A stretch of 57,710 nucleotides of DNA from a virus, in IMG/VR virus record IMGVR_UViG_3300045988_104231; one strand, given 5' to 3'. Position 1 is the first letter of the stretch. Each line of letters starts with the position of its first letter. A model generated the notes under the pieces. The model saw nothing but the letters and a program-made list of their open reading frames with translations, was not told the DNA's origin and did no database searches. A program made the position numbers and the translations under genes. Shown piece by piece: positions 12,600-57,710 of the stretch.

Positions 12600-13574
12600 A
12601 TGGATAGAAATTATTTTATCGGTACTCCCGAAGGAGGCAATTCCGGTGGAAGTAAGTTTGACATCATGGCCTTTCTCCCGAGCTTGATGGGCGGTGGTGG
12701 AAAATCATTGGACCCCAATTTGGTAGCGGCTTTGATGAACAATAAGGGCAATCAAGACGCTTGGGGCGGTGGTGGTTGCTGGTGGATCTGGATCATCCTC
12801 CTGTTCTTCGTATGGGGAGGCTGGGGTGGCAACGGCTTCGGCAACAACGGGGCTAACGGATTACCGGCTCAATTGAACAATGACGCTGGTCGTGAATTGT
12901 TGATGAACGCTATCCAAGGAAACGGAACGGCTATCAGCCAATTGTCATCTTCCTTGAATTGCTCTACCCAGCAATTACAAAACGCTATCTGCCAGATCCA
13001 AGGACAGATCCAGAGCGTGGGTAACCAAGTAGGCATGAGTTCTCAACAAATCATTAATGCCGTCCAAAGTGGTAACAATCAATTATTGAGCCAGATCGCC
13101 GAGTGCTGCTGCACGGTTAACAACAACATCACTAAGATGGGCTACGAGAACCAATTGGCTAGCTGCAACCAGACAAACACGCTGGTGAATACGATGAACA
13201 ACAACACGTTGACTCTCCGTGACTCAGGTCTGCAGAACACCCGTGATATCATCAACGAGGTTCGTGATTTCAAGAACTTGTATCAACAAGACAAGATGGA
13301 TCGCTTGACGGCGGAGAACCTAGCCTTGAAAGGACAGATCTCCCAAAGCAACCAGAACGCCTATTTCGCCGCTACTCTACAGGCGCAGACCGCCCCTCTA
13401 GGTAACGCCTTGGGTGATTTGAGCTCAAGATTGGCCAAGATCGAGTGTAACCAGCCGGAGGTGGCAAAGGTTCCTTACTCCCCCGTGGTAGGCATACCCA
13501 CTTGCGTGGCCGCCCAGTACGGATTAGGCCTAGGTCTCGGTAACTGGGGAAACTTCGGCAACGGATGGGGATAA
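12600..13574 (+). CDS. Gly/Trp-rich, Gln/Asn-rich membrane protein of unknown function
   Basis: 324 aa: GGGGCWWIWIILLFFVWGGWGGNGFGNNG transmembrane segment, long Q/N-rich central region with a CCC cluster, C-terminal GLGLGLGNWGNFGNGWG. Confidence 0.55.
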   Translation: MDRNYFIGTPEGGNSGGSKFDIMAFLPSLMGGGGKSLDPNLVAALMNNKGNQDAWGGGGCWWIWIILLFFVWGGWGGNGFGNNGANGLPAQLNNDAGRELLMNAIQGNGTAISQLSSSLNCSTQQLQNAICQIQGQIQSVGNQVGMSSQQIINAVQSGNNQLLSQIAECCCTVNNNITKMGYENQLASCNQTNTLVNTMNNNTLTLRDSGLQNTRDIINEVRDFKNLYQQDKMDRLTAENLALKGQISQSNQNAYFAATLQAQTAPLGNALGDLSSRLAKIECNQPEVAKVPYSPVVGIPTCVAAQYGLGLGLGNWGNFGNGWG

Positions 13575-16061: not shown

Positions 16062-16886
16062 TTATGATGACATGTGTTTTTTTACTATATCCATCTTACT
16101 GAAAGACATGGATAGAATCCGCATCGCATCATTCTTTACACTAGTCAATACCTCCACGTTGTCTTCAAACGGGTTCAACGATCTTATGACAGAGACAATA
16201 TCCCGCATACAATAGCAAACCAACAATACGTACGATCCCATGACCTCTGAATTGTTCTGTTCAGCGGCCTTATGCAATACTTTGTCTGCGAATCCCATCT
16301 TAACCATATTACCGTTATCATCTTTTTGATACATAGGGATATCAACTCCCATTTTGACCTTGATAAAATCAGTTATGGAAAAATTAGCCTTTGCTTGTAG
16401 GCATCCGTAGAGCCTCTCCAAGTCTTTCGGGCTGGTCTCTTGAACGATATCAGTCCAATCGTCACAGACCAACTCCCTTATGACTGAGTAAGGCTCAAGC
16501 CTGTCATTGGGGATATCGATGACCTTAACGCTCCCATCCTCGTTATAGTCATCGCTATCGCCGCCATATTCATTAACGCTCTCGATACGTTTCGAGGAAG
16601 CGTAATATTTCCAGTTCCCATCAAACTCTATCAGGTATTCATCCAGTGTTCTTATCCATCCCTTCAGCTTGTATATGGATTGATGCAGATACATTTCCCA
16701 CAAGCATGTATCATAAAAAAGATCAATGTAATATCGGCTATTCTCATCATCCTTATGACGAAAAGTACGGGGTGCGGATACGATTCTCGCCATATCCAAA
16801 TTCCCTAACACCTTATTGAAAAAGTTGGCCAATAAACTGTCATCATCTATGCGTGATAACAGCTCATAAAAAGGTTTATCTCTCAT
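16062..16886 (-). CDS. Hypothetical protein
   Basis: 274-aa ORF, last gene of the leftward arm. Start is adjacent to the stop of the Bro gene. Confidence 0.55.
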   Translation of the reverse strand: MRDKPFYELLSRIDDDSLLANFFNKVLGNLDMARIVSAPRTFRHKDDENSRYYIDLFYDTCLWEMYLHQSIYKLKGWIRTLDEYLIEFDGNWKYYASSKRIESVNEYGGDSDDYNEDGSVKVIDIPNDRLEPYSVIRELVCDDWTDIVQETSPKDLERLYGCLQAKANFSITDFIKVKMGVDIPMYQKDDNGNMVKMGFADKVLHKAAEQNNSEVMGSYVLLVCYCMRDIVSVIRSLNPFEDNVEVLTSVKNDAMRILSMSFSKMDIVKKHMSS

Positions 16887-17683
16887 TAGGCTGAAATTTT
16901 AAGGTTATACAAATCAAGGATGAACTTCTTCCCGGCCTCCGTCCAATACATATGCTGGCGTGTCTTTATCTCACCATTGCTATCCGTATATGGATGTGGC
17001 TTGTGAAAGGTAAGCCCCTTGTCCCTGTATTTAGAGTAAAGAAAGTATGTGCCGCTTTCCTTGTATTGCACGCCCCACTCGCAAAGCAGCTTGTTTAATT
17101 TGATGTCGGAGATACCGAGGCATGAAGCTATCATATTAACCGTTAGATAACCCTTGGACGAAAGAACCTTGTCGCAATATTCCGCTTTTGGTGCGGATAT
17201 CCTTAATTCTTGCGCTTGCAGCTCTATCGTGGCTTGTTTATGCTCATTCTCGATCTCAAGCGTTTTTAGCCGTTCCTCTTTCCTTAATAGAGTGGCTTGC
17301 GCTATGGTCAATGCCCGTGCCATGATCTCCTCCGGGGTATCCTCCGGTTTGGCGACCATGTAACCTCCGGTCTTGCGGATTGAAGGGAGAACCTCGTGTG
17401 TTATCCAACGAGAGAAGGGTCTAGCTTTTGGGCTATCGCTTTTTAATACCGCATCATACATCCCGGCTTCTGATACAAATACCGCTTGTTGGGTTCTACC
17501 TAAACTATCTATGATGTCCACCAGATGGACGTCATCTTCATCTAACCTGTTCTTCACGTTTCTGCTATTCGCTATATCGACCGCCTTGCATATATCTACC
17601 AAGCAGAACAAAGGGTTCTCATTAGTCCCGGCTACTCTCACTTCACCGAAACGATCGTTCTTGAATATTTCGATTCCTTTCAT
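16886..17683 (-). CDS. Bro-N / KilAC-type antirepressor
   Basis: N-terminus FKNDRFGEVRVAGTNENPLFCLVDICKAVDI...FVSEAGMYDAVLKSDSPKARPFSRWITHEVLPSIRKTG is a Bro-N domain. The C-terminal half is KilA-C-like. Confidence 0.85.
   Translation of the reverse strand: MKGIEIFKNDRFGEVRVAGTNENPLFCLVDICKAVDIANSRNVKNRLDEDDVHLVDIIDSLGRTQQAVFVSEAGMYDAVLKSDSPKARPFSRWITHEVLPSIRKTGGYMVAKPEDTPEEIMARALTIAQATLLRKEERLKTLEIENEHKQATIELQAQELRISAPKAEYCDKVLSSKGYLTVNMIASCLGISDIKLNKLLCEWGVQYKESGTYFLYSKYRDKGLTFHKPHPYTDSNGEIKTRQHMYWTEAGKKFILDLYNLKISA
17382..17661. repeat. Left copy of a 280-bp perfect inverted repeat (partner at 49515-49794)
   Basis: Base-by-base comparison of several 60-nt stretches. Both-frame ORF translations are identical (17373..17717 vs 49486..49821). 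Confidence 0.9.
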
Positions 17684-20226: not shown

Positions 20227-21054
20227 TCAAAACAATGTTTTCTCTAAATCATAATTAATCCAAATCACCTCTTGTACCTCACTGCTCCGGATGTTATTCT
20301 TCTTGACCGGGAACTTTATCATGTTCCAATCCCCGTACAACTCCCGCATTAACGGACAGTCATAACTACTTATCATTGCCTTGCCTTTGATCGAATGCAA
20401 ACGATCGGAAAGCTCACGATGCTTATCGTCAGAGAACTCGTACTTGTAATCATTCGAAGAGGCCCGGCACTCAAGCGGATAGGGTGGGTCGGCGTAGAAG
20501 AAAGCGTTTGGGAAATCAAGCCGATCAATGCAATCCTTATAGTCCAGATTGGTGATCTGGAAATTGCCCCTGATCACCTCTGCGACCTCATGCAGTTTCT
20601 CTATCGCGTTGTTCCATCGGGAGACAGTCTCTCCGCCCTTGGCGTTGACATGTTGCTTGGCACAATGCCAACCCTTGTTCTTCTGTTGCGCTCCCAACCC
20701 GAAGAATGATTGCCGGATACGGACGTAAAACCTCCTTGCACGCTCTATCTTATCCCCGGAAGGTTCCCATGAGTTATTATACTCCAGTTCGGAGCATGGG
20801 GTTAACAGCAATAACCTTGTCAACTCCGGCTCATGATCCCTTAATACCTCGAAGAAGTTGGTTATATCCCCGTTTATCTCGTTGGCCGTCTTGATAACCC
20901 TTCCCGGATAATTGATGGACACGGCCATGCTTCCGGCGAACAGATCGACCAGATGGGTGAAATCTCTTGGAAAGTTCGTGTACAGATACTCCAACCAAGT
21001 GAATTTCCCTCCGAAGTAATTGAAGGCTATAAGTTTATTTCTGTTTCCGCTCAT
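20227..21054 (-). CDS. dam: Dam-like (D12 class) N6-adenine DNA methyltransferase
   Basis: FNYFGGK...LVDLFAGSMAV (AdoMet site) and FFYADPPYP (catalytic DPPY). Confidence 0.85.
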   Translation of the reverse strand: MSGNRNKLIAFNYFGGKFTWLEYLYTNFPRDFTHLVDLFAGSMAVSINYPGRVIKTANEINGDITNFFEVLRDHEPELTRLLLLTPCSELEYNNSWEPSGDKIERARRFYVRIRQSFFGLGAQQKNKGWHCAKQHVNAKGGETVSRWNNAIEKLHEVAEVIRGNFQITNLDYKDCIDRLDFPNAFFYADPPYPLECRASSNDYKYEFSDDKHRELSDRLHSIKGKAMISSYDCPLMRELYGDWNMIKFPVKKNNIRSSEVQEVIWINYDLEKTLF

Positions 21055-21986: not shown

Positions 21987-22670
21987 TTATAATTGAAACA
22001 TTGATGTCTGTATTATCTTTTTACCACTAGGTAATATGATTTCACCTAGGCATTCTTCCTTAAACCTTTTATCTTGGGCATTGAAATATTCCTTGTCTAT
22101 CTCGGTTGCGTAAAAATCAAAACCCATTTTATAGGCGGCTATACGGCTGCTTCCGCTCCCCAAATGAGAGTCATAAATTTTGTCACCGGGATTGGCGTAA
22201 TTTTTCAAAATCCATAAATACAATGAGAGCGGTTTTTGGTGTGGATGTATCTTTCCCTTTCCGGTCTCATGTCCCATCCTATATCCATCCCACGGAATGG
22301 AGACAAGATTGCATGGGATTTTTTTTGGCACGTAGGCTATCTCACATTTCGAGTATTTAAACACATCGTTATTGTTGCTCATCTTATCCCAAACAATCAA
22401 ATAGTTGGTATTTCCTAGATATTGGGTGTAATAATTATATCCCCATATGATCTGATCCTTGCTAATTCTTTTTAACTCATCGAAGTATGACGCATCCTTG
22501 ATGGGGCTATTCTTATAGGATGTATCCTTGAATTTATACCCATTATTCCTTTTCTTCCAGTCCTCTCCTATACCATACGGTGGACCTACGATAGCTAGAT
22601 CAAAGAATTTATCAGGAATGTTTCTCATATAGTCCATACAATCCTCGTTGTAAACATTGCTTATAGCCAT
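21987..22670 (-). CDS. Beta-class N6A/N4C DNA methyltransferase
   Basis: N-terminal IVGPPYG (catalytic motif IV) and C-terminal YDSHLGSGSSRIAA (motif I). Permuted order as in N4/N6 MTases. Confidence 0.8.
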   Translation of the reverse strand: MAISNVYNEDCMDYMRNIPDKFFDLAIVGPPYGIGEDWKKRNNGYKFKDTSYKNSPIKDASYFDELKRISKDQIIWGYNYYTQYLGNTNYLIVWDKMSNNNDVFKYSKCEIAYVPKKIPCNLVSIPWDGYRMGHETGKGKIHPHQKPLSLYLWILKNYANPGDKIYDSHLGSGSSRIAAYKMGFDFYATEIDKEYFNAQDKRFKEECLGEIILPSGKKIIQTSMFQL

Positions 22671-30923: not shown

Positions 30924-30991
30924 GTAGGCCTCCGGGAGTCGAACCCGGCCATCCCCATGTTAGGGGCGCTCTACCGATAAGCTAAGGCCTT
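30924..30991 (-). tRNA. tRNA-like gene with non-canonical (shortened) anticodon arm; possible pseudogene
   Basis: Good D-arm (GCTT/ATCGGTA/GAGC), T-arm (CCGGG/TTCGACT/CCCGG) and 6-7 bp acceptor. The anticodon arm is only CCCC/TAACAT/GGGG, and the total length is 68 nt. Confidence 0.4.
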
Positions 30992-32022: not shown

Positions 32023-32097
32023 ATCCTCACGGACGGAGACCTGCGTTGCAATTGTGACTGATTTTCTGATTGAATAAGCACCCCTAGGGGTGAAACG

Positions 32098-32172
32098 TGC
32101 TCCCTGCCGGGCTTGAACCGGCGACCTCTCGCTTATGAGGCGAATGCTCTCGACCAACTGAGCTAAGGGAGC
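32098..32172 (-). tRNA. tRNA, anticodon CAT (Met, or Ile2 if lysidine-modified)
   Basis: Perfect 75-nt cloverleaf: GCTCCCT TA GCTC AGTTGGTCGA GAGC A TTCGC CTCATAA GCGAG AGGTC GCCGG TTCAAGC CCGGC AGGGAGC A. Confidence 0.9.
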
Positions 32173-32866: not shown

Positions 32867-33212
32867 GTTGTTATTATTTTAAATGTTCGCTCCCCCACAA
32901 CCTCCAACGGTTTCGAACCCGAATCATAGACGGGTAGGGGAGTGTATCTTATGCGTTAGATAGACAGTTTGACACCGATACGGAAATATCCGTACTTCAC
33001 TGACACGACGTAATATCTAACCTTTGTATATACATTATTAAATATGTAGACTCCAACACCAGAACCGATCAAACTACATCGGGAGCGGGGATCATCATCC
33101 CTTCCGGTATCTTCGCCTGTCATAACCTTACCCTCCATACCTATATCTCTTACGTATATCCTCTTATGGGGATAAGGATTTATTCACTAAGTCAAAGAAC
33201 TCTTTTTTTTAG

Positions 33213-33284
33213 TAGCCCCACCGGTAATCGAAACCGGATATCTCCTTTAGGGGAGGAGCGCTCTATCCGTTGAGCTATGGGGCT
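33213..33284 (-). tRNA. tRNA-Arg (anticodon CCT), with C at position 33
   Basis: 72-nt cloverleaf: AGCCCCA TA GCTC AACGGATA GAGC G CTCCT CCCCTAA AGGAG ATAT CCGGT TTCGATT ACCGG TGGGGCT A. Confidence 0.8.
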
Positions 33285-33293
33285 TGGTTGTGT

Positions 33294-33473
33294 TTACTTG
33301 TTCAGTTTTACTCCCCTGTAGAGTTGTAATGCTCTTTTTCTTATCATGTAAGAATTAGGGGAATTAGTCATTCCCTTTAAGGCGTGTCTAATCGTTACAT
33401 CGGTTAATCCCGTGTCCTTGGCCAAGGCTCTTATTGAGCCATGCGGCACTATGATCTCTTCTAATCTTGCCAT
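33294..33473 (-). CDS. Small HTH protein (59 aa, below the ORF-track cutoff)
   Basis: Hand translation: MARLEEIIVPHGSIRALAKDTGLTDVTIRHALKGMTNSPNSYMIRKRALQLYRGVKLNK. Confidence 0.5.
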   Translation of the reverse strand: MARLEEIIVPHGSIRALAKDTGLTDVTIRHALKGMTNSPNSYMIRKRALQLYRGVKLNK

Positions 33474-33483
33474 ATCTTTTTAT

Positions 33484-33741
33484 TTATCTGTTCATATACG
33501 CTATAAGGCCGGCCTTGCTAAACACCCTTTTCCGGCCTTTATGAGCGTGAGGTATTTCCTTTATATGTTCCCTCAGATATCGGATAGATAGCTTGGTGAT
33601 CTTGGAGGCTTCATCGAAGCCAACGAACTCGTCCTCTTTCTGGGCCTCTTTCTCCAAAACGGACTCCACGATCCTTTTTACCTCCTTTCGCATGAGGGGA
33701 ATCAATTCCTCGGCTATAAGCCTTGCGTCGTTCCTTGTCAT
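33484..33741 (-). CDS. Excisionase/MerR-like HTH DNA-binding protein
   Basis: C-terminal FDEASKITKLSIRYLREHIKEIPHAHKGRKRVFSKAGLIAYM fits the Xis/AlpA-type HTH pattern. Confidence 0.55.
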   Translation of the reverse strand: MTRNDARLIAEELIPLMRKEVKRIVESVLEKEAQKEDEFVGFDEASKITKLSIRYLREHIKEIPHAHKGRKRVFSKAGLIAYMNR

Positions 33742-33746
33742 AGCGT

Positions 33747-33953
33747 TTACTTTAATCTCGTTACAATCACGTCATCAATGCGTCCCGCTGTTTGTATCGT
33801 AAAATCATATCCTTTAGTCTTCAAGTAATCCACACCCCTTTTTACCTTTAAGTATGGTATGGTCTTGTTTTTTATGATTGTGGGTTCTCCTATATTGAAT
33901 CCCAATAAGATTTCCTCCAACAATTCGGAGGTTGTCATGCTTGTCGTAATCAT
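33747..33953 (-). CDS. Hypothetical protein
   Basis: 68-aa ORF, overlap-coupled to the upstream gene. Confidence 0.45.
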   Translation of the reverse strand: MITTSMTTSELLEEILLGFNIGEPTIIKNKTIPYLKVKRGVDYLKTKGYDFTIQTAGRIDDVIVTRLK

Positions 33954-34147
33954 ATTATTTCTATTTTCACTTCGAGCGCATCACATATCTTCGCAAGGAT
34001 ATCTATCCCAACGGAGAATTTACCGTTCTCAACGTTGGAGATAGTTGCGGCTCGAAGGTTGGCAAGTTCGGCCAGTTGTCGCACCGTGTAGCATCTTTCC
34101 TTACGTATTTCGGCTATTCGTTTCCCTATTCGTTCACGTTCATTCAT
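33950..34147 (-). CDS. XRE/Cro-type HTH regulator
   Basis: IGKRIAEIRKERCYTVRQLAELANLRAATISNVENGK. Confidence 0.8.
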   Translation of the reverse strand: MNERERIGKRIAEIRKERCYTVRQLAELANLRAATISNVENGKFSVGIDILAKICDALEVKIEII

Positions 34148-34412
34148 TCAATCCCTCCTCTCTTACTATGTTTTCATCTTCCCACTCAGCCCAATCGCAA
34201 TACCATTGAGCCGCAGGTTTTATGATTTCCTTTTTTATCATTTCGGAATCATATTTGACATCAAGCGTGGCGCAATAATGTAACGCCGCAATCATTGGCT
34301 CTTTAATGCCAAATCTATTGGTATAGCTAAACTTTAATGTCGGAACATCCGGATTTAAGGCTACATCCTTCCTGCCAAATATTTCGATGATACTGGCAGA
34401 ACGTATGTGCAT
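34140..34412 (-). CDS. Hypothetical protein
   Basis: 90-aa ORF. Confidence 0.45.
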   Translation of the reverse strand: MHIRSASIIEIFGRKDVALNPDVPTLKFSYTNRFGIKEPMIAALHYCATLDVKYDSEMIKKEIIKPAAQWYCDWAEWEDENIVREEGLNE

Positions 34413-34529
34413 TATGACATTTCTCCCATATAGGGGATCCCCGCCTTTTTAGTGACCGGAACCTTCGATGAAGGCGAACTCGGGCAATGTTAAATTCATG
34501 ATATATGTCTTTGTTATCTTTTATCTCCA

Positions 34530-34715
34530 TTAGGCTATATCTTCTATCGCATAGTCGCCAGACGCAAAGGGGGCGAAATCTTCAACAATGGTAGCAATGC
34601 GCATTGCGTCCTCGTCAGATATTACGATTTCCATATTTTCATTACAAATCATTTCTATCCCATTATTTTCTAGAATCTCTAATAACTCGCTATTTTCGCA
34701 ATATAATGTTTTCAT
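34530..34715 (-). CDS. Hypothetical acidic small protein
   Basis: 61-aa ORF. Confidence 0.4.
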   Translation of the reverse strand: MKTLYCENSELLEILENNGIEMICNENMEIVISDEDAMRIATIVEDFAPFASGDYAIEDIA

Positions 34716-34756
34716 GTTTATTGTATTTATTTGATTATTAATTAATATAGATATAT

Positions 34757-34939
34757 TTATTTTTCAATCACTTCAAGATCATTTAAAATCTTGATAGCTT
34801 TTTCTTTCCCCAAGCTTGCACATTTCACAAGGGCCTCATAAGCGGACAGCCTATGACCTCCATTAATGCCGGCATAACGAAGAATTGAAATAAAACGAAT
34901 GTGAGAGATTGACTGCCCTTTATAAATGTAAGTTGTCAT
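34757..34939 (-). CDS. Hypothetical small protein
   Basis: 60-aa ORF, first gene downstream of the leftward promoter. Confidence 0.4.
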   Translation of the reverse strand: MTTYIYKGQSISHIRFISILRYAGINGGHRLSAYEALVKCASLGKEKAIKILNDLEVIEK

Positions 34940-34989
34940 GATATTATCGCTGAATTGTTACTGTTGCCACCAGCTCTATTGTTATGATG

Positions 34990-35021
34990 CAAAGATAAGC
35001 ATAATATTGTTTGCTACCAAA
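34990..35021 (-). promoter_or_regulatory. Leftward (early) Bacteroidota-type promoter
   Basis: Minus strand TTTG (35021-35018), 20 nt, TATCTTTG (34997-34990). Confidence 0.6.
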
Positions 35022-35125
35022 TAGCGTAACGGAAATATTTATAGAATTAACAACAATTAATATTCCAGCCCTGTGTTATCCTTCCATCCTTTTTTTGTTT
35101 GATTATATCATTATGTTTCCTTGTT

Positions 35126-35413
35126 TTATACGGGCGATGTGGTCTTGGTATACGGCGTGTTTTCTTCCTCTTTTTCCTCCAGTACCTTTTTAAGCTGATA
35201 TAGACTCAAAATATCATACTCAAATGTCGGATTGTCCCAATTTTTCCGGACAGAGTTCGTTTGGACAGAGATAAATTTTCGTAAGTCAAAGATATATTGA
35301 CATTGTGACAGTCTTATCTCGTTAAATGTTATCTCGTAGTTATCAAACCACGCAAGCAGTTTTTTTAGTTCCTCGTTCATGATATAAATGATTAACCCCG
35401 CGAATATACCCAA
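35126..35413 (-). CDS. Hypothetical protein
   Basis: 95-aa ORF at the divergent junction. Confidence 0.45.
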   Translation of the reverse strand: MGIFAGLIIYIMNEELKKLLAWFDNYEITFNEIRLSQCQYIFDLRKFISVQTNSVRKNWDNPTFEYDILSLYQLKKVLEEKEEENTPYTKTTSPV

Positions 35414-38348: not shown

Positions 38349-38460
38349 TTTGATGTTTATCCGAATATTGTTATATTTGCGGTAACATAAAAATAAAGAA
38401 ATTAGAGCCTAAGAGCCATACCCGGCGGGAGTCGTATCCTGCGGGGTATGGCTCTTTTTA
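38349..38460 (+). promoter_or_regulatory. Promoter + leader terminator-hairpin cassette 2 (ahead of portal)
   Basis: TTTG 38349-38352, 19 nt, TATATTTG 38372-38379. Hairpin arms 38411-38423 / 38444-38456 followed by TTTTT. ATG at 38471. Confidence 0.7.
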
Positions 38461-49492: not shown

Positions 49493-49816
49493 ATGGAAGC
49501 AATTAAAATTTTTGAGAACGATCGTTTCGGTGAAGTGAGAGTAGCCGGGACTAATGAGAACCCTTTGTTCTGCTTGGTAGATATATGCAAGGCGGTCGAT
49601 ATAGCGAATAGCAGAAACGTGAAGAACAGGTTAGATGAAGATGACGTCCATCTGGTGGACATCATAGATAGTTTAGGTAGAACCCAACAAGCGGTATTTG
49701 TATCAGAAGCCGGGATGTATGATGCGGTATTAAAAAGCGATAGCCCAAAAGCTAGACCCTTCTCTCGTTGGATAACACACGAGGTTCTCCCTTCCATCCG
49801 TAAACATGGGGCGTAA
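49493..49816 (+). CDS. Stand-alone Bro-N domain protein (duplicate of the N-terminus of the 16886-17683 gene)
   Basis: 107 aa. Residues 9-101 are identical to the Bro/KilAC protein. Confidence 0.8.
   Translation: MEAIKIFENDRFGEVRVAGTNENPLFCLVDICKAVDIANSRNVKNRLDEDDVHLVDIIDSLGRTQQAVFVSEAGMYDAVLKSDSPKARPFSRWITHEVLPSIRKHGA
49515..49794. repeat. Right copy of the 280-bp perfect inverted repeat
   Basis: Reverse complement of 17382-17661. Confidence 0.9.
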
Positions 49817-49860
49817 ATCAAGCAATATAGAATATTTTTAATAGCTAAAAACTTAATAAT

Positions 49861-50601
49861 ATGGATAGTTTAGTATTTAAAGGCAATAATGGGCAAGTTG
49901 TTACTAATAGCTTGCTAGTAGCGGAGAAGTTTGGGAAAAGACATGCGGATGTAATTCGCTCAATCGAAAATTTACTAAAATCCTCTGATGAAGAACTGAA
50001 CGCAAAAATGCGTTTAGCTTTTGTATCAAACACTTATGAGGATTCTACCGGGAAAAGTAATCCTGTATACATTATGAATAGAAAAGGATTCTCTATCCTT
50101 GTTATGGGGTATAACGGGATTAAGGCTCTAAGGTTTAAGAATGATTTTTATGACGCTTTCGAAGAAATGGAGAAAGCGTTGAAAGAGCAAAGCAAACCTC
50201 TTTCATCCGCACAGATGTTTGCCATGCAAGCTAACATCAACTTGGAATATGAGAACAGGATATCCAATGTGGAAAAACGAATAGAAGCGATAGAACAAGA
50301 ACGAGAAGAAAATGGAAAACTCCTTTTGGCTATTCCTGTTTCAACGGAAAAGATACCGGAAATGAGTTTAAGAGATAAGATCAGACAGATGGTTAATAGA
50401 TACTCTTCCGCCCATAATGTGAAACAACAGGATGTTTGGCGCAAGATATACGATCAATTGTACTATCTATATCATATATCTATTCGTAGCTATAAGAAGA
50501 AAAACGGAGAGTCTAATTTGGATATCGCTGAGAAGCATCGTTTTATTGAGTATATCTACAATATTATCTCCAATATGATCAGAGAGAAAGGGGTTGCTTG
50601 A
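49861..50601 (+). CDS. Rha-family phage regulatory protein
   Basis: VVTNSLLVAEKFGKRHADVIRSIENLL...YIMNRKGFSILVMGYNG. Confidence 0.8.
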   Translation: MDSLVFKGNNGQVVTNSLLVAEKFGKRHADVIRSIENLLKSSDEELNAKMRLAFVSNTYEDSTGKSNPVYIMNRKGFSILVMGYNGIKALRFKNDFYDAFEEMEKALKEQSKPLSSAQMFAMQANINLEYENRISNVEKRIEAIEQEREENGKLLLAIPVSTEKIPEMSLRDKIRQMVNRYSSAHNVKQQDVWRKIYDQLYYLYHISIRSYKKKNGESNLDIAEKHRFIEYIYNIISNMIREKGVA

Positions 50602-50679
50602 TTATTATGGTTGCTCAAACAAAATATAGACATGATTTGGTTTAGTTTTCATAATCCTCCCTCATGTCGTGAGACAGCA

Positions 50680-50726
50680 AGGGGGATAAAAAATCCCCTC
50701 CAGAGCCTTTTGGATGGAGGGGATTT
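50680..50726 (-). terminator. Terminator for the LRR gene, located between convergent genes
   Basis: 12-bp stem AAATCCCCTCCA / TGGAGGGGATTT. On the minus strand it is followed by TTTT. Confidence 0.6.
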
Positions 50727-50735
50727 GAATTGGGT

Positions 50736-51323
50736 TTATAGCGAGATCTTGAATCTCTCTTTTCCGCATTCAATGATGTATTTGCCTTTTGGAAGGTTTA
50801 TACGGGTATCTTGACCATTGGATTTACCTTGATATCTCATGATTCCTTTGAAATCGTATACTCTAATATCAGTATTTTTGTCTATGTTTTTTAATATTAA
50901 ATATTTACCTATTCTTGAAATGGAAATTTCATGATAATCCTCATTAATAGATTGAATAGATACAGGAGAAGATGATAGGTGTTTTATATTATAATCTTTC
51001 CATAGATCGTGTTGAGCATATTCTTGAAAAAGTTCATCAGGAACATAAACATTTAATTCTTCATTCCAAATGTTTATCGAATTAGGATATATGAATACAG
51101 GATTCGATGATTTCAAGTACAAATTATCTATTTGCGTATCTATTGCTTCTTGTTCTATCTCCTCTAAAGTAGAAGGTAATATTATATTTCTAGTATGTTT
51201 TAAGTTGAAAAAAGCATGTTTTCTTATTGTCTTAATGTCTTCTGGTACTTGGCAAATTTTTTGGTTGGAAGCATTTGCGTATATAATGACATTTTTTTTC
51301 TTCATTTGATATAAGACATCCAT
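50736..51323 (-). CDS. C-terminal part of BspA-like LRR protein, ending in a T9SS C-terminal sorting domain
   Basis: LRR_5-like IPEDIKTIRKHAFFNLKHTRNIILPSTLEEIEQEAI. The tail DIRVYDFKGIMRYQGKSNGQDTRINLPKGKYIIECGKERFKISL fits the Por secretion tail pattern. Confidence 0.6.
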   Translation of the reverse strand: MDVLYQMKKKNVIIYANASNQKICQVPEDIKTIRKHAFFNLKHTRNIILPSTLEEIEQEAIDTQIDNLYLKSSNPVFIYPNSINIWNEELNVYVPDELFQEYAQHDLWKDYNIKHLSSSPVSIQSINEDYHEISISRIGKYLILKNIDKNTDIRVYDFKGIMRYQGKSNGQDTRINLPKGKYIIECGKERFKISL

Positions 51324-52149
51324 TTATAGATTCCAAAAATGGATTTTCTTTGGAAACGGTTATTTCTTTAAGGTCATATCCGCACGACAATCCTCCTTCT
51401 CCGATGTATCTTAATTTTTTTCCGATGTCTATTCTTTCAATTTTACTTAATCCAAATATCCAATTACCAAGCTCTTCCGTACTATCAGGTATACTAATAT
51501 ATTTTAAAGGACAATCCCAAAACGCATTATCGCCTATATAAGTTACTTTGCTGGGGATTTCTATTTTCGTGAGATTTTTACAACCGGAAAAAGCTTGCAT
51601 AGGTATATCTTGTATATTATCAGATAATCTAATATTTGTCAATGATTCAAGACTGTAAAAAACATGTTTGTCAATAAATTGAACGCTATCATACATGTAT
51701 ACACTTTGAAGTTTATCGCAATGCGATAATGCCCATTCAGAAATACCAACAAGGCTCTTTGGTAGTATAATCTTCTTTAATTTATCACATTCGCTAAATG
51801 CGTTATTTCCAAGTACGTCATTCTCCTCTATGCAGCAAAGATGATTTTCATTAATATAGTATCCATCTCCTCCCTTTCTTATATGAGCATCACTCATGTC
51901 TAATATGGCTAATTTCCCTTCTCTATTATCTATTCCGAATTGGCTTTTCCCCAACATATATCTGAGTGTGGCTATATCATCTGAGTTAATATATCCATTT
52001 AAAGTTAGATTAGTGATTTTAGAAATACTATCTCCTAATATTTTCGACAATGAACCGGCCTTATCTACTTCGATGAATGTTGAATCTTGATTATTCCCAA
52101 ATACATAGTTGGATAAAGAAATAAATAAAAAAAGTAATATTTTCCTCAT
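51232..52149 (-). CDS. N-terminal part of BspA-like leucine-rich-repeat protein with signal peptide
   Basis: MRKILLFLFISLSNYVFG signal peptide. Repeated ..I.IP.SV..I...AF..C..L.. units. The frame is lost at an A8 tract (plus-strand T8 at 51292-51299). Confidence 0.7.
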   Translation of the reverse strand: MRKILLFLFISLSNYVFGNNQDSTFIEVDKAGSLSKILGDSISKITNLTLNGYINSDDIATLRYMLGKSQFGIDNREGKLAILDMSDAHIRKGGDGYYINENHLCCIEENDVLGNNAFSECDKLKKIILPKSLVGISEWALSHCDKLQSVYMYDSVQFIDKHVFYSLESLTNIRLSDNIQDIPMQAFSGCKNLTKIEIPSKVTYIGDNAFWDCPLKYISIPDSTEELGNWIFGLSKIERIDIGKKLRYIGEGGLSCGYDLKEITVSKENPFLESINGCLISNEEKKCHYIRKCFQPKNLPSTRRH

Positions 52150-52178
52150 GACTTGATTTAGTTTAATTAATGATGAGA

Positions 52179-52210
52179 CAAAGGTAGATAATAGTGTTAA
52201 CAAAAGCAAA
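52179..52210 (-). promoter_or_regulatory. Bacteroidota-type promoter of the LRR gene
   Basis: Minus strand TTTG (52210-52207), 20 nt, TACCTTTG (52186-52179). Confidence 0.65.
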
Positions 52211-52273
52211 TAGTATAGAAGGGAATTACATGTTCGATAACATATTTCTTAATTTAAGTAGTACAAACCTTGT

Positions 52274-52552
52274 CTACCTCTTTTTTCCGAACAACTCGGA
52301 ATGACTACCAATTCTAAGCAAGTCGATTATTTCTCCGTCAATCCAAATAAGAAGAAAATCCCCTTCTATATGGCACTCCATACAACCTTTATACTCACCT
52401 TTCAACATGTGAGGTTTGTATTCTTGTGGAATCGGATGGTCATTTATAAGCAGATTTGCGATATATTCAAAAGCTGCGATTTTTTTGGGGAATTTCTGAA
52501 TACGTTTGAAATCTTTCTTAAACTGGCTTGTTGGGTGTAATTTCTTTTTCAC
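52274..52552 (-). CDS. yafQ: YafQ/RelE-family toxin
   Basis: FKKDFKRI...HMLKGEYKGCMECHIEGDFLLIW..DGEIIDLLRIGSHSELF. Confidence 0.85.
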   Translation of the reverse strand: MKKKLHPTSQFKKDFKRIQKFPKKIAAFEYIANLLINDHPIPQEYKPHMLKGEYKGCMECHIEGDFLLIWIDGEIIDLLRIGSHSELFGKKR

Positions 52553-52791
52553 TTCATTAATTCCTCCATCAAACTATCCACGCTGTCGAACGTTTCTTTA
52601 TTCTTGGTCGTGCGTGCTTCCCTTATAGCCGCTATCGTTTCCTCGTTTGGCTCGGAGTATACAGCGTCCATCAAGGTGCTCTCTACAAAATTATTCAAAC
52701 TCCTGTTCGCTTTCTTGGCTTGTTCCTGCAAGACTTGCAACAAGTCCTCACGTAAACGGAACGATGTTTGCTTTCTTATTACTGCTTCCAT
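52549..52791 (-). CDS. Ribbon-helix-helix antitoxin (DinJ/RelB-like partner)
   Basis: TSFRLREDLLQVLQEQAKKANRSLNNFVESTL RHH motif. 4-nt overlap with the toxin gene. Confidence 0.75.
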   Translation of the reverse strand: MEAVIRKQTSFRLREDLLQVLQEQAKKANRSLNNFVESTLMDAVYSEPNEETIAAIREARTTKNKETFDSVDSLMEELMK

Positions 52792-52816
52792 ATTACTTAT
52801 GTATTATATTGTATCG

Positions 52817-52847
52817 CAAAGGTAATGTATTGTATGCATAAAACAAA
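52817..52847 (-). promoter_or_regulatory. Bacteroidota-type promoter of the antitoxin-toxin operon
   Basis: Minus strand TTTG (52847-52844), 19 nt, TACCTTTG (52824-52817). Confidence 0.65.
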
Positions 52848-52883
52848 CTTTCATGATTTTTATTTAGAGGATTGCAGGTTATA

Positions 52884-53162
52884 TCATTCCATCTTAATCT
52901 TAACATCCACTTCAACAGGTATTGGTTTTTGACAATGGGGGCAAATGATCGTTTTGCTACTATTGATTTCATCAGAAAAGAAATCCCCGACTTTACACCC
53001 TATCACATTTGCTATCTTTTGAAGTGTTTCCACCGTTGGGTTTTTATTAATTGATTGAGATAAAGCACCTCGTGTTATAGGCTTACCGTTTTTGCTTTCC
53101 CATTCCGCAGCTATACGTTCGATAGTATAACCTTGAGCCTTAATAATTGATTTTATGTCCAT
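52884..53162 (-). CDS. XRE-family HTH repressor-like protein with C-terminal CxxC element
   Basis: ITRGALSQSINKNPTVETLQKIANVIGCKVGDFF HTH, then ICPHCQKPI. Confidence 0.7.
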   Translation of the reverse strand: MDIKSIIKAQGYTIERIAAEWESKNGKPITRGALSQSINKNPTVETLQKIANVIGCKVGDFFSDEINSSKTIICPHCQKPIPVEVDVKIKME

Positions 53163-54549: not shown

Positions 54550-55173
54550 ATGAAAGATTTATCATTAAACAAAGAGACAATGAGTTCAATCGAAGTATCT
54601 GAACTTACAGGGAAACGTCATGATGCTATCTTGCGTGACATCAGAAACTTACTATGTCAAGGGGTAAACGCCCACAATTTTGTGGAGGTTGAATATGTAG
54701 ATAAAAAGGGAGAAGCAAGGCCTTGTTTCGAACTAACTAAGAAAGGATGCCTGATACTTGCTTCTGGGTATGACGCTAAACTTCGTGAAAAAATTATCGA
54801 TCGATGGGAAGAACTGGAACTGGACAAATCTCCGAAAACTTTATCCCCTGCCGAGATCATCCTCCAGCAATCTCGTCTTCTTGTTGAGAACGAGAGAAAG
54901 ATAAGAGAGCTAGAGGCGACAACCGTTAAACTTCAAAACGATCTTGAAGAGGTGAATCAGAGAACCACTGCAAACCTTAATCAATCCACCATTGTCGCTT
55001 ACGTTACTAGAAATAACATCAAGCTGGAAGTTACGAAATACGGTGCGATGGGACGAAAGGCTACATCTATTTGCAAGAAGCGAGGCATAGAGATCACCAA
55101 GATAAACGATGTTCGCTGGGGTATGGTAAGCGTTTATCCGGATAGCGTGCTGGACGAGGTGTTTAATAAGTAA
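54550..55173 (+). CDS. Second Rha-family phage regulatory protein
   Basis: MSSIEVSELTGKRHDAILRDIRNLL...ELTKKGCLILASGYDAKLREKIIDRWEELE. Confidence 0.8.
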   Translation: MKDLSLNKETMSSIEVSELTGKRHDAILRDIRNLLCQGVNAHNFVEVEYVDKKGEARPCFELTKKGCLILASGYDAKLREKIIDRWEELELDKSPKTLSPAEIILQQSRLLVENERKIRELEATTVKLQNDLEEVNQRTTANLNQSTIVAYVTRNNIKLEVTKYGAMGRKATSICKKRGIEITKINDVRWGMVSVYPDSVLDEVFNK

Positions 55174-57610: not shown

Positions 57611-57710
57611 TTTGACAATTGATCCTTATCCCCTATATTTGTAGGACATAACAAAAAAGAAATTAGAGCCTAAGAGCCATACCCGGCGGGAGTCGTATCC
57701 TGCGGGGTAT
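57611..57710 (+). promoter_or_regulatory. Promoter + leader hairpin cassette 1 (continues into nt 1-50)
   Basis: TTTG 57611-57614, 19 nt, TATATTTG 57634-57641, then AAAGAAATTAGAGCCTAAGAGCCATACCC... identical to cassette 2. Confidence 0.7.

What the first reader, a model, noticed from the sequence alone, without database searches (positions are those of the whole stretch)
50736..52210. Phage-borne BspA-like LRR surface protein with T9SS sorting tail, interrupted at an A8 tract
ORFs 51232-52149 and 50736-51323 are two halves of one gene. It has a signal peptide (MRKILLFLFISLSNYVFG), BspA/LRR_5-type repeats, and a C-terminal domain fitting the type IX secretion sorting signal (DIRVYDFKGIMRYQGKSNGQDTRINLPKGKYIIECGKERFKISL). 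The frame breaks at a run of eight A (plus-strand T8, 51292-51299). Removing one A joins ...CLISNEEK to NVIIYANASNQKICQVPEDIKTIRKHAFFN, which is exactly the expected LRR continuation, giving a protein of about 470 aa. The gene has its own canonical promoter (52179-52210) and terminator (50680-50726). It is far more AT-rich than the backbone. BspA-like proteins mediate adhesion and invasion in oral and gut Bacteroidota. A homopolymer switch would make this a phase-variable lysogenic-conversion factor. The T9SS tail also restricts the likely host to T9SS-bearing Bacteroidales.
Basis: partly seen in the sequence, partly recalled or inferred. Interest (0 to 1): 0.7.

Follow-up and report, generated by a model that had tools for sequence, protein, structure and literature searches.

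The report
Frameshifted phage gene for secreted adhesin
A gut Parabacteroides phage carries a self-contained accessory gene for a secreted BspA-like leucine-rich-repeat surface protein; in this copy one extra A breaks it, which looks like an ordinary loss-of-function mutation in one strain and not an on/off switch.

Summary
Two minus-strand ORFs (51232-52149 and 50736-51323) are halves of one gene, split at an A8 run (51292-51299). Removing one A gives a 470-aa protein that is 100% identical to an intact protein already present in many public assemblies. The protein has a signal peptide, BspA-type LRR_5 repeats (E=5e-55) and a C-terminal seven-strand beta-sandwich. Profile homology and fold place that domain in the T9SS type A sorting-domain family, although the direct curated-model score is below threshold. 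A Bacteroidetes-type promoter, a strong terminator and low GC (30% against 44%) mark the gene as a moron. Close temperate relatives are integrated in Parabacteroides distasonis, a species reported to have T9SS cargo. Phase variation is not supported. All 20 intact fetched copies, including a diverged allele under purifying selection (pN/pS 0.21), carry in-frame A7. A8 occurs only in contigs 100% identical to the window (one HMP strain). A-runs are not enriched in the gene. The window phage also lacks the integrase and repressor that its relatives have, so lysogenic conversion is unproven for it. Other contigs disrupt the gene differently: an inversion, an insertion, a 5' replacement and a second frameshift. 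The gene is therefore dispensable and often lost.

The parts
52179..52210 (-). Bacteroidetes-type promoter motif (TTTG, 20 nt, TACCTTTG) 30 nt upstream of the ATG
   Evidence: exact match to TTTG-N18-22-TAnnTTTG; 9 matches in the window against 1.02 expected by shuffling. Sequence-level only; activity not tested.
50736..52149 (-). BspA-like LRR_5 gene, interrupted in this window by a +1 frameshift (intact allele = 470 aa, P0001)
52096..52149 (-). N-terminal signal-peptide-like segment MRKILLFLFISLSNYVFG (no lipobox cysteine, so signal peptidase I type by inspection)
   Evidence: read from the sequence, no predictor was run
51292..51299 (-). A8 run (A7 in all intact alleles): the frameshift site
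51415..51421 (-). Second A7 run; A6 (giving ...GKN stop) in one public contig (L033); in-frame T-to-A change in L041
50739..50933 (-). C-terminal 65-residue seven-strand beta-sandwich, T9SS type A sorting-domain family
50682..50726 (-). Intrinsic terminator: 12-bp G+C-rich stem followed by U6
   Evidence: dG -21.4 kcal/mol, z -3.55; 0 of 200 shuffles fold as well
51623..51633 (-). Recurrent rearrangement breakpoint inside the gene (ACAAATATTA|GATTATCTG), used by an inversion and by a 5' replacement in other contigs
51511..51519 (-). Site where two other contigs (L040, L041) break into foreign sequence with inverted termini (probable element insertion)
52274..52791 (-). Neighbouring RelE/YafQ-like toxin (52274-52552) and Arc/RHH-like antitoxin (52549-52791), part of the same low-GC cassette; promoter motif at 52817-52847

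Best explanation
This is a moron: a self-contained accessory gene carried in the tail-region accessory island of a family of Parabacteroides distasonis siphovirus-like phages. Its intact form encodes a 470-aa protein with three parts. A Sec signal peptide takes it to the periplasm. A BspA-type LRR_5 solenoid is the likely ligand-binding or adhesive part. A C-terminal Ig-like beta-sandwich of the T9SS type A sorting-domain family would be recognised by the host's type IX secretion system, cleaved, and used to attach the LRR domain to the cell surface. When it is expressed from its own Bacteroidetes-type promoter in an infected or lysogenic cell, the phage would thereby add a surface LRR protein to its host. 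In this window the gene is a loss-of-function allele. A single A inserted into an ordinary A7 coding run (GAA GAA AAA AAT = E-E-K-N) truncates the protein at residue 305, so the signal peptide and the LRR region are separated from the sorting domain. This allele is confined to one phage strain from HMP samples. It is one of several independent ways in which this dispensable gene is knocked out in natural populations. Shown: gene structure, domain families, intact alleles elsewhere, distribution of A7 and A8, host of the relatives, and purifying selection on the intact allele. Inferred: secretion route, surface display, adhesive function, and that A8 is a real mutation and not a read error.
For: Intact allele: P0001 (470 aa) is 100% identical to the A7 repair. 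It or a near-identical allele occurs on about 37 contigs by the cluster list's per-member contig counts; the look-ups read 8 contigs for P0001 and 21 for P0123. All 20 intact loci fetched have A7. A8 occurs only in the window, L008 and L009, which are 100.000% identical to the window over 4.3 and 16.5 kb. L006 and L007 are A7 with zero mismatches to the window over about 3 kb, so A8 is a very recent single-base change. Runs of 7 or more are not enriched: 3 observed against about 2.0 expected, P=0.29. Domains: LRR_5 E=5e-55. The tail profile retrieves about 1,489 proteins, many named 'T9SS type A sorting domain-containing protein' by NCBI; 56 of 57 aligned homologs match TIGR04183. The AF2 model of the last 65 residues has pLDDT above 90 and seven strands. 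The top PDB fold matches are RgpB CTD, 5hfs, NucA CTD in the translocon, and PorZ. Host: the related prophage L029 is integrated beside lspA/trmH/tamL genes whose products are exact P. distasonis proteins; PMC4804311 lists P. distasonis among species with T9SS-secreted CTD proteins. Moron features: promoter, terminator, GC 30% against 44%, and the LRR+TA cassette is 99.1% identical between phage backbones that are otherwise 94-97% identical. Function retained where intact: pN/pS 0.21 against the diverged allele. Dispensable: the gene is also disrupted by an inversion, a 5' replacement, a probable insertion and an A6 frameshift in other contigs.
Against: The direct match of the tail to TIGR04183 is below the curated cutoff (14.8 bits for the whole protein, 18.6 bits for the tail alone, cutoff 23), and Pfam PF18962 gives no hit. 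Foldseek E-values are modest (1e-3 to 4e-2), and generic Ig-like folds also match. No reads were available, so a mixed A7/A8 population within the sample cannot be excluded. The host of the window phage itself is inferred from relatives. The window phage has no integrase or S24 repressor, so when and where the gene would be expressed is unclear. No experiment shows secretion or adhesion.
Confidence: 0.68

Rival explanations
1. The A-run is a contingency locus: slipped-strand mispairing toggles the gene between ON (A7) and OFF (A8), giving reversible phase variation of a phage-delivered surface antigen.
For: Both A7 and A8 forms exist in public data in otherwise identical sequence. A second A-run in the same gene is shortened by one base in another contig (L033). 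Surface antigens are typical phase-variable genes.
Against: A8 is seen in one strain only (three assemblies 100% identical to each other), while all 20 intact loci from about 20 other samples have A7. No A6 or A9 was seen at this site. The in-frame state is only A7, which is short for an A/T contingency tract. Runs of 7 or more are not enriched over the codon-shuffle expectation (P=0.29). The other disruptions of the gene (inversion, insertion, replacement) are irreversible, which is the pattern of gene loss and not of switching. From general knowledge, gut Bacteroidales mostly achieve phase variation through invertible promoters.
Confidence: 0.1
2. The extra A is a sequencing or assembly error in the HMP data; the real phage carries the intact A7 gene and nothing is interrupted.
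For: All A8 contigs appear to derive from HMP data of one strain (L008 = SRS016267 WUGC scaffold; L009 = HMPC12-1_SAMN00041005). They may therefore share the same reads. Every other sample has A7. Homopolymers are the classic site of indel errors.
Against: At least three differently produced assemblies (the window, a JGI-held WUGC scaffold and an ENA scaffold) give the same A8. The exact 305-aa product is listed on 5 contigs and the 325-aa form on 2. From general knowledge, consensus errors at 8-base runs are uncommon with Illumina data at normal coverage.
Confidence: 0.15
3. The A8 allele is still partly expressed: RNA polymerase slippage on the A8/T8 run yields some A7-length transcripts, so a low level of full-length protein is made (leaky rather than null).
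For: Established knowledge: transcriptional slippage on A/T runs of about 8-9 or more restores frame in some bacterial and IS genes. The tract here is 8 long, and the downstream frame is fully open to the native stop.
Against: Nothing in the data tests it. The downstream frame being open is expected for any very recent mutation (zero other differences from A7 contigs). Slippage at 8 A is usually inefficient.
Confidence: 0.05

Closest known systems
BspA of Tannerella forsythia and other BspA-like LRR_5 surface proteins of Bacteroidales (Pfam PF13306)
   Same: Signal peptide, BspA-type LRR_5 repeats and a C-terminal T9SS-type sorting domain. That BspA is a T9SS cargo is from my own knowledge. 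The nearest LRR relatives with the same tail (P0330, P0336) are LRR_5 proteins.
   Different: Much shorter (470 aa, against more than 1,000 aa for BspA), with no Big_2/Ig repeats between the LRR region and the tail. Only 23-39% identical to any non-cluster homolog. Phage-encoded. Adhesion was not tested.
T9SS type A C-terminal sorting domains (TIGR04183 / PF18962; structures of RgpB, HBP35, PorZ and NucA CTDs)
   Same: C-terminal position, about 65-70 residues, seven beta-strands. The top fold matches are T9SS CTDs. Its homologs match TIGR04183 (56 of 57) and are so named by NCBI.
   Different: Its own TIGR04183 score is below the cutoff and there is no PF18962 hit. It belongs to a subfamily whose closest members are about 100-aa Prevotella/Hoylesella proteins made of little more than a signal peptide plus the domain.
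Phage-encoded T9SS cargo proteins of 'Cryophage' (Bellas et al. 2020, PMC7468147)
   Same: A phage of a Bacteroidota host carrying variable accessory genes with T9SS type A sorting domains, presumed to use the host secretion system.
   Different: Those are glycoside hydrolases and a PA14 protein in a glacier phage. Here the cargo is an LRR adhesin-like protein in human-gut P. distasonis phages, with natural knock-out alleles.
Classical phage morons / lysogenic-conversion genes (own promoter and terminator, atypical GC)
   Same: Own promoter and terminator, GC 30% against 44%, an accessory island between the tape-measure and distal tail genes, and an adjacent RelE-like toxin filed under 'moron' by PHROGs.
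   Different: The phage in the window has no detectable integrase or repressor, so expression from a stable lysogen is not established for it. Relatives with the same gene do integrate.
Simple-sequence-repeat contingency loci (e.g. homopolymer-switched surface genes of Campylobacter, Neisseria, Haemophilus)
   Same: A frameshift at a homopolymer inside the coding region of a surface-protein gene.
   Different: The wild-type tract is only A7, is not enriched, and is invariant across samples except in one strain. No reversible switching is evident.

Membership tests
BspA-like LRR_5 proteins (Pfam PF13306) | Significant match to the LRR_5 model above the gathering threshold | tested here: met
   185.2 bits against a cutoff of 27.7, E=5.1e-55, three stretches; the repeats continue past the frameshift (25.4 bits in the 3' half alone).
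BspA-like LRR_5 proteins (Pfam PF13306) | Secreted or surface location (N-terminal signal peptide) | tested here: inconclusive
   A hydrophobic N-terminus MRKILLFLFISLSNYVFG is present. No signal-peptide predictor is available here, and there is no experiment.
T9SS type A cargo (TIGR04183 / PF18962 C-terminal sorting domain) | The protein's own C-terminus scores above the curated model threshold | tested here: not met
   TIGR04183 scores 14.8 bits (whole protein) and 18.6 bits (tail alone) against a cutoff of 23; no PF18962 hit at E<=10.
T9SS type A cargo (TIGR04183 / PF18962 C-terminal sorting domain) | Homology of the tail to recognised T9SS sorting domains | tested here: met
   significant hits to the C-termini of P0335, P0336 and P0338, each at or above the TIGR04183 cutoff; the profile finds about 1,489 proteins, many named T9SS type A sorting domain proteins; 56 of 57 homologs match TIGR04183; weak hits fall on the CTDs of NucA (8glk_D) and RemA (8gl6_D).
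T9SS type A cargo (TIGR04183 / PF18962 C-terminal sorting domain) | Compact seven-strand Ig-like beta-sandwich at the extreme C-terminus | tested here: met
   seven strands, pLDDT above 90 over the last 65 residues; the best PDB matches are RgpB CTD (7pq4, 5ag8), 5hfs, 8glk_D and PorZ 5m11, with modest E-values (1e-3 to 2e-2).
T9SS type A cargo (TIGR04183 / PF18962 C-terminal sorting domain) | Host possesses a T9SS | tested here: met
   The host of the integrated relatives is P. distasonis. PMC4804311 lists P. distasonis among species with T9SS-secreted CTD proteins. The host of the window phage itself is inferred.
T9SS type A cargo (TIGR04183 / PF18962 C-terminal sorting domain) | T9SS-dependent export and CTD cleavage | not testable with these tools
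   Needs expression in P. distasonis wild type against T9SS mutants.
Homopolymer (SSR) phase-variable contingency gene | Tract length polymorphic among and within populations, with ON and OFF lengths recurring independently | tested here: not met
   A7 in all 20 intact loci. A8 only in three contigs 100% identical to one another. No other lengths were seen. Within-sample variation could not be tested (no reads).
Homopolymer (SSR) phase-variable contingency gene | Unusually long or enriched repeat tract maintained in the gene | tested here: not met
   the wild-type gene has 3 runs of 7 or more against 1.6-2.0 expected (P=0.22-0.29) and no run of 8 or more.
Homopolymer (SSR) phase-variable contingency gene | Reversible switching | not testable with these tools
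   Needs reads, time series or passage experiments.
Phage moron / lysogenic-conversion gene | Autonomous transcription unit of atypical composition in a non-essential position of a phage genome | tested here: met
   The phage context (terminase, portal, capsid, tape measure, tail fibre) is shown. Dispensability is shown by natural knock-outs.
Phage moron / lysogenic-conversion gene | Carried by a temperate phage that forms lysogens | tested here: inconclusive
   The window has no integrase or S24 repressor by Pfam or tblastn. Relatives with the same gene sit on 170-297 kb contigs, and closely related prophages have an integrase and are integrated in P. distasonis.

The most novel reading that the evidence does not exclude
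The phage-delivered surface LRR protein is under fluctuating selection in the human gut. It is kept by purifying selection in most phages, yet it is knocked out repeatedly by unrelated mechanisms: +1 and -1 homopolymer frameshifts, a large inversion, an element insertion and a 5' replacement. This would happen because displaying it is costly in some hosts, for example as an IgA target or as a receptor for other phages. A sharper version: the recurrent breakpoint ATTA|GATTATC inside the gene (window 51623-51633), used with two different partners, is a site-specific recombination site that forms a DNA-inversion switch for the gene.
Probability: 0.12. Interest if true: 0.65.

Novelty: new member of a known kind. 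Interest (0 to 1): 0.38.

Why it matters
If the intact gene works as inferred, gut Parabacteroides phages give their host a new T9SS-displayed LRR surface protein. That would be a route by which phages alter adhesion or the antigenic surface of a common commensal. Phage-encoded T9SS cargo has very little precedent: the one paper found calls its own case 'unique' (PMC7468147). The natural series of intact and knocked-out alleles in nearly isogenic phages offers a ready-made comparison for testing what the protein does. The specific claim that made the finding look exciting, a homopolymer phase switch, is not borne out by the population data.

Tried and rejected
1. Scans of viral contigs, metagenome contigs and genome contigs for the tract with variable length, and a gapless version, found nothing. 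The pattern does work on the window and on fetched loci, so these collections simply do not hold this phage.
2. The search for related loci in GTDB representative genomes gave only distant LRR proteins (26-40% identity) and no host.
The host was instead reached through a terminase homolog (P0156) and exact look-up of the flanking host proteins.
4. The phage GenBank collection shares only the Rha/Ant genes with Bacteroides phage BF1-TP2. I rejected this as a host indicator.
5. In the exhaustive search with the tail, the multi-stretch hits (P0331-P0334, P0337) turned out to be WD40/beta-propeller or other repeat proteins, so I treated them as spurious.
6. The sigma-70 promoter scan is irrelevant for Bacteroidota, and the terminator scan missed the hairpin because of its loop limit. 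They were replaced by the Bacteroidetes motif search and direct folding.
7. dN/dS among the first 18 intact loci was uninformative, with only two alleles and 2 differences. It was resolved with the diverged allele.
8. I first read P0134 as a second tract-2 frameshift. Its contig (L041) shows an in-frame substitution plus a junction with foreign DNA instead.
9. Differing gene calls for the toxin suggested disruption in some contigs, but the toxin is intact in all except low-coverage L040.
10. PADLOC found no defence-system match for the LRR gene or its neighbours.
Full report
**1. The observation**

On the minus strand, an ORF starting at the ATG at 52149 runs to 51232. A second ORF runs from 51323 to 50736 in another frame. 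They overlap at a run of eight A at 51292-51299. Deleting one A fuses them into a 470-aa protein...CLISNEEK-NVIIYANAS....

**2. The repair matches a real gene**

Its 90% cluster holds several intact 470-aa variants. It also holds the exact 305-aa and 325-aa truncated products of the window (P0121, P0129) and the 189-aa downstream ORF (P0122). By the contig counts in that cluster list, the intact forms occur on about 37 contigs. I fetched 43 loci in total.
- All 18 intact copies first fetched have A7.
- Two further loci with a 2.9%-diverged allele also have A7.
- A8 occurs only in the window, in L008 (JGI, HMP SRS016267) and in L009 (ENA, HMPC12-1_SAMN00041005).
- L008 and L009 are 100.000% identical to the window over 4.3 kb and 16.5 kb. 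The A8 carriers are therefore one strain, probably one subject or even one read set.
- L006 and L007 carry A7 and differ from the window by nothing else over about 3 kb. The extra A is a very recent single event.

**3. No sign of a contingency tract**

The in-frame state is A7, formed by ordinary codons GAA GAA AAA AAT. The wild-type gene has three runs of 7 or more, against 2.0 expected from synonymous-codon shuffles and 1.6 from codon-order shuffles (P = 0.29 and 0.22). It has no run of 8 or more. No A6 or A9 was seen at this site.

One short contig (L033) has A6 at a second A7 run (51415-51421), giving ...GKN-stop. Its quality is unknown.

**4. What the protein is**

*LRR domain.* Pfam LRR_5, the BspA type, matches at E = 5.1e-55 (185 bits, cutoff 27.7), and LRR_8 at 8e-10. 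The repeats continue past the break. The N-terminus MRKILLFLFISLSNYVFG looks like a signal peptidase I signal peptide and has no lipobox cysteine.

*C-terminal tail, direct tests.* These are weak. TIGR04183 scores 14.8 bits on the whole protein and 18.6 bits on the tail alone, against a cutoff of 23. Pfam PF18962 gives no hit.

*C-terminal tail, indirect tests.* These are consistent with a T9SS sorting domain.
- An exhaustive HMMER search with the last 100 residues found C-terminal matches in P0330, P0335, P0336 and P0338.
- Three of those four reach the TIGR04183 cutoff themselves.
- The multi-copy hits in that search were WD40/beta-propeller or other repeat proteins and were discarded.
- A profile of six tails (A1) retrieved about 1,489 proteins. 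Many are named 'T9SS type A sorting domain-containing protein' by NCBI, in Prevotella and Hoylesella.
- 56 of 57 aligned homologs match TIGR04183 at E <= 1e-3.
- AlphaFold2 with that alignment gives seven beta-strands with pLDDT above 90 over the last 65 residues.
- Foldseek against the PDB ranks RgpB CTD (7pq4, 5ag8), the T9SS cargo CTD 5hfs, the translocon-bound NucA CTD 8glk_D and PorZ 5m11 at or near the top. E-values are modest, and other Ig-like folds also match.

I conclude that the tail belongs to the T9SS type A sorting-domain family, in a divergent subfamily.

**5. Transcription unit and composition**
- The Bacteroidetes promoter motif TTTG-N20-TACCTTTG lies at 52179-52210 on the minus strand. 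The motif occurs 9 times in the window against 1.0 expected.
- A 12-bp G+C-rich hairpin at 50691-50726, followed by U6, folds at -21.4 kcal/mol (z = -3.55).
- Gene GC is 30.3% and window GC is 43.8%.

**6. Phage and host**

The window encodes small and large terminase, portal, a 1,140-aa tape-measure-sized protein, a tail fibre with an S74 chaperone domain, DnaB, two DNA methylases and several Ant/Bro/Rha antirepressors. Other contigs run from window position 57710 directly into position 1, so the window is a complete circular genome.

The gene lies in an accessory island (about 49.4-55.6 kb) between the tape-measure gene and the distal tail genes. It sits next to a RelE/YafQ-like toxin and its antitoxin.

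Contigs of 170 and 297 kb carry the same gene. A closely related prophage (L029) has a 415-aa tyrosine integrase. It is integrated beside lspA, trmH and tamL genes whose products are exact matches to Parabacteroides distasonis proteins. PMC4804311 lists P. distasonis among the species with T9SS-secreted CTD proteins.

However, the window has no integrase and no S24 repressor. Pfam found none in any ORF of 300 aa or more, and tblastn with the relatives' proteins found nothing. About 5 kb carrying both genes in L030 is replaced by about 1.9 kb in the window. Lysogenic conversion is therefore plausible for the relatives but unproven for this phage.

**7. Evolution of the gene**
- The 18 intact loci hold only two DNA alleles. 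These differ by two nonsynonymous changes, although the phage backbones differ by 3-6%.
- The LRR+TA cassette (50530-52901) is 99.1% identical between the two backbones. That points to recent exchange of the cassette.
- A diverged allele (L042/L043; 41 differences) gives pN/pS = 0.21, so the full-length protein is under purifying selection.

**8. Other natural disruptions**
- *Inversion.* L034 and L035 join window 51623 to 12610 in inverted orientation. L036-L038 carry the reciprocal junction, 12620 to 51633. Both junctions occur in assembly ERZ27956234, and L037 comes from another sample. The 12.6-kb site lies upstream of the likely true start of the neighbouring gene, because the PHROG match begins at residue 30. 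The inversion therefore breaks only the LRR gene.
- *5' replacement.* L039 joins the same breakpoint (51633) to a Rha/ANT gene that is absent from the window.
- *Probable insertion.* L040 and L041 break at 51511-51519 into foreign sequence with inverted termini GTATTTAYAACC and a shared TGGGATTGT. L040 is a low-coverage contig.

These events are irreversible. They show that the gene is dispensable for the phage and is lost repeatedly.

**9. Comparison with known systems**
- BspA-like LRR_5 proteins with T9SS tails are common in Bacteroidales.
- LRR_5-type genes occur in two PHROG families of unknown function. They also occur in 21 phage GenBank records, nearly all unannotated contigs from human faeces, at less than 37% identity.
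- Phage-encoded T9SS cargo has a precedent in 'Cryophage' (PMC7468147).
- No paper found describes a BspA-like T9SS cargo in gut phages.

**10. Verdict**

The identification of the gene is right: a BspA-like LRR protein with a T9SS tail, phage-borne, organised as a moron, in a T9SS-bearing host. The T9SS tail rests on family-level evidence and not on the protein's own model score. The phase-variation interpretation is not supported. The A8 allele is best read as a recent loss-of-function mutation in one strain, less likely a read error. The window phage lacks the lysogeny genes of its relatives. I rate the finding a new member of a known kind, of moderate interest.

Noticed in passing
window 12610-12620 and 51623-51633; L034-L038: Both reciprocal junctions of a large inversion between a site inside the LRR gene (ACAAATATTA|GATTATCTG) and a site just upstream of the gene at 12.6 kb (ATAGAAATTA|TTTTATCGG). 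Both occur in one assembly, and the second junction also occurs in another sample. Only about 4-6 bp are shared, so this is not a k-mer assembly chimera.
   Followed up: partly
L039 1718-1740 (window breakpoint 51633): The same gene-internal breakpoint is joined to a different partner (a Rha/ANT gene absent from the window), again right after ATTA. This could be a recombination hot spot or a secondary event in the inverted lineage.
   Followed up: partly
window 51511-51519; L040 7979-8098; L041 1-54: Two contigs from different samples break here into foreign sequence with inverted termini (GTATTTATAACC / GTATTTACAACC) and a shared TGGGATTGT. This looks like an IS or MITE-like insertion with a target duplication. 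The element was not recovered, and L040 is low coverage (2.6x) and also has a frameshifted toxin gene.
   Followed up: partly
window 33207-35151 versus L030 3712-8752: The window lacks the S24 repressor and the 415-aa integrase that closely related P. distasonis prophages carry at this position. It has about 1.9 kb of small ORFs instead, next to a tRNA-Arg gene. It may be a non-integrating or virulent derivative of a temperate family.
   Followed up: partly
window 50530-52901: The low-GC cassette (LRR gene plus RelE-like toxin and antitoxin) is 99.1% identical between two phage lineages whose flanking structural genes are 94-97% identical. That implies recent horizontal exchange of the cassette. 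In L042/L043 the gene is followed by a HicA toxin module in place of the Rha gene.
   Followed up: partly
window 57634-57710 (running into 1-9) and 38372-38458: An 87-bp direct repeat (about 93% identity) precedes the portal gene and the first tail gene. Each copy lies just after a Bacteroidetes promoter motif (38349-38379; 57611-57641). This is possibly a shared late-gene leader, and the window's ends fall within it.
   Followed up: no
window 30924-30991, 32097-32172, 33212-33284: Three tRNA genes on the minus strand: one with an undetermined anticodon, tRNA-Met(CAT) and tRNA-Arg(CCT).
   Followed up: no
P0338-P0457: The closest relatives of the C-terminal domain are very abundant proteins of about 100 aa in Prevotella/Hoylesella. 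They consist of little more than a signal peptide plus a T9SS type A sorting domain, so they appear to be cargo-less 'tails'.
   Followed up: no
window 20227-21054 and 21987-22670: Two DNA methyltransferase genes (D12-class N6-adenine and N6_N4 type) lie in the early/replication module, presumably for anti-restriction.
   Followed up: no
window 16886-17683, 49493-50601, 54550-55173: There are four Ant/Bro/Rha-type antirepressor genes in a genome without a recognisable CI-type repressor. The region 49781-49581 is a mosaic boundary where related contigs diverge.
   Followed up: no
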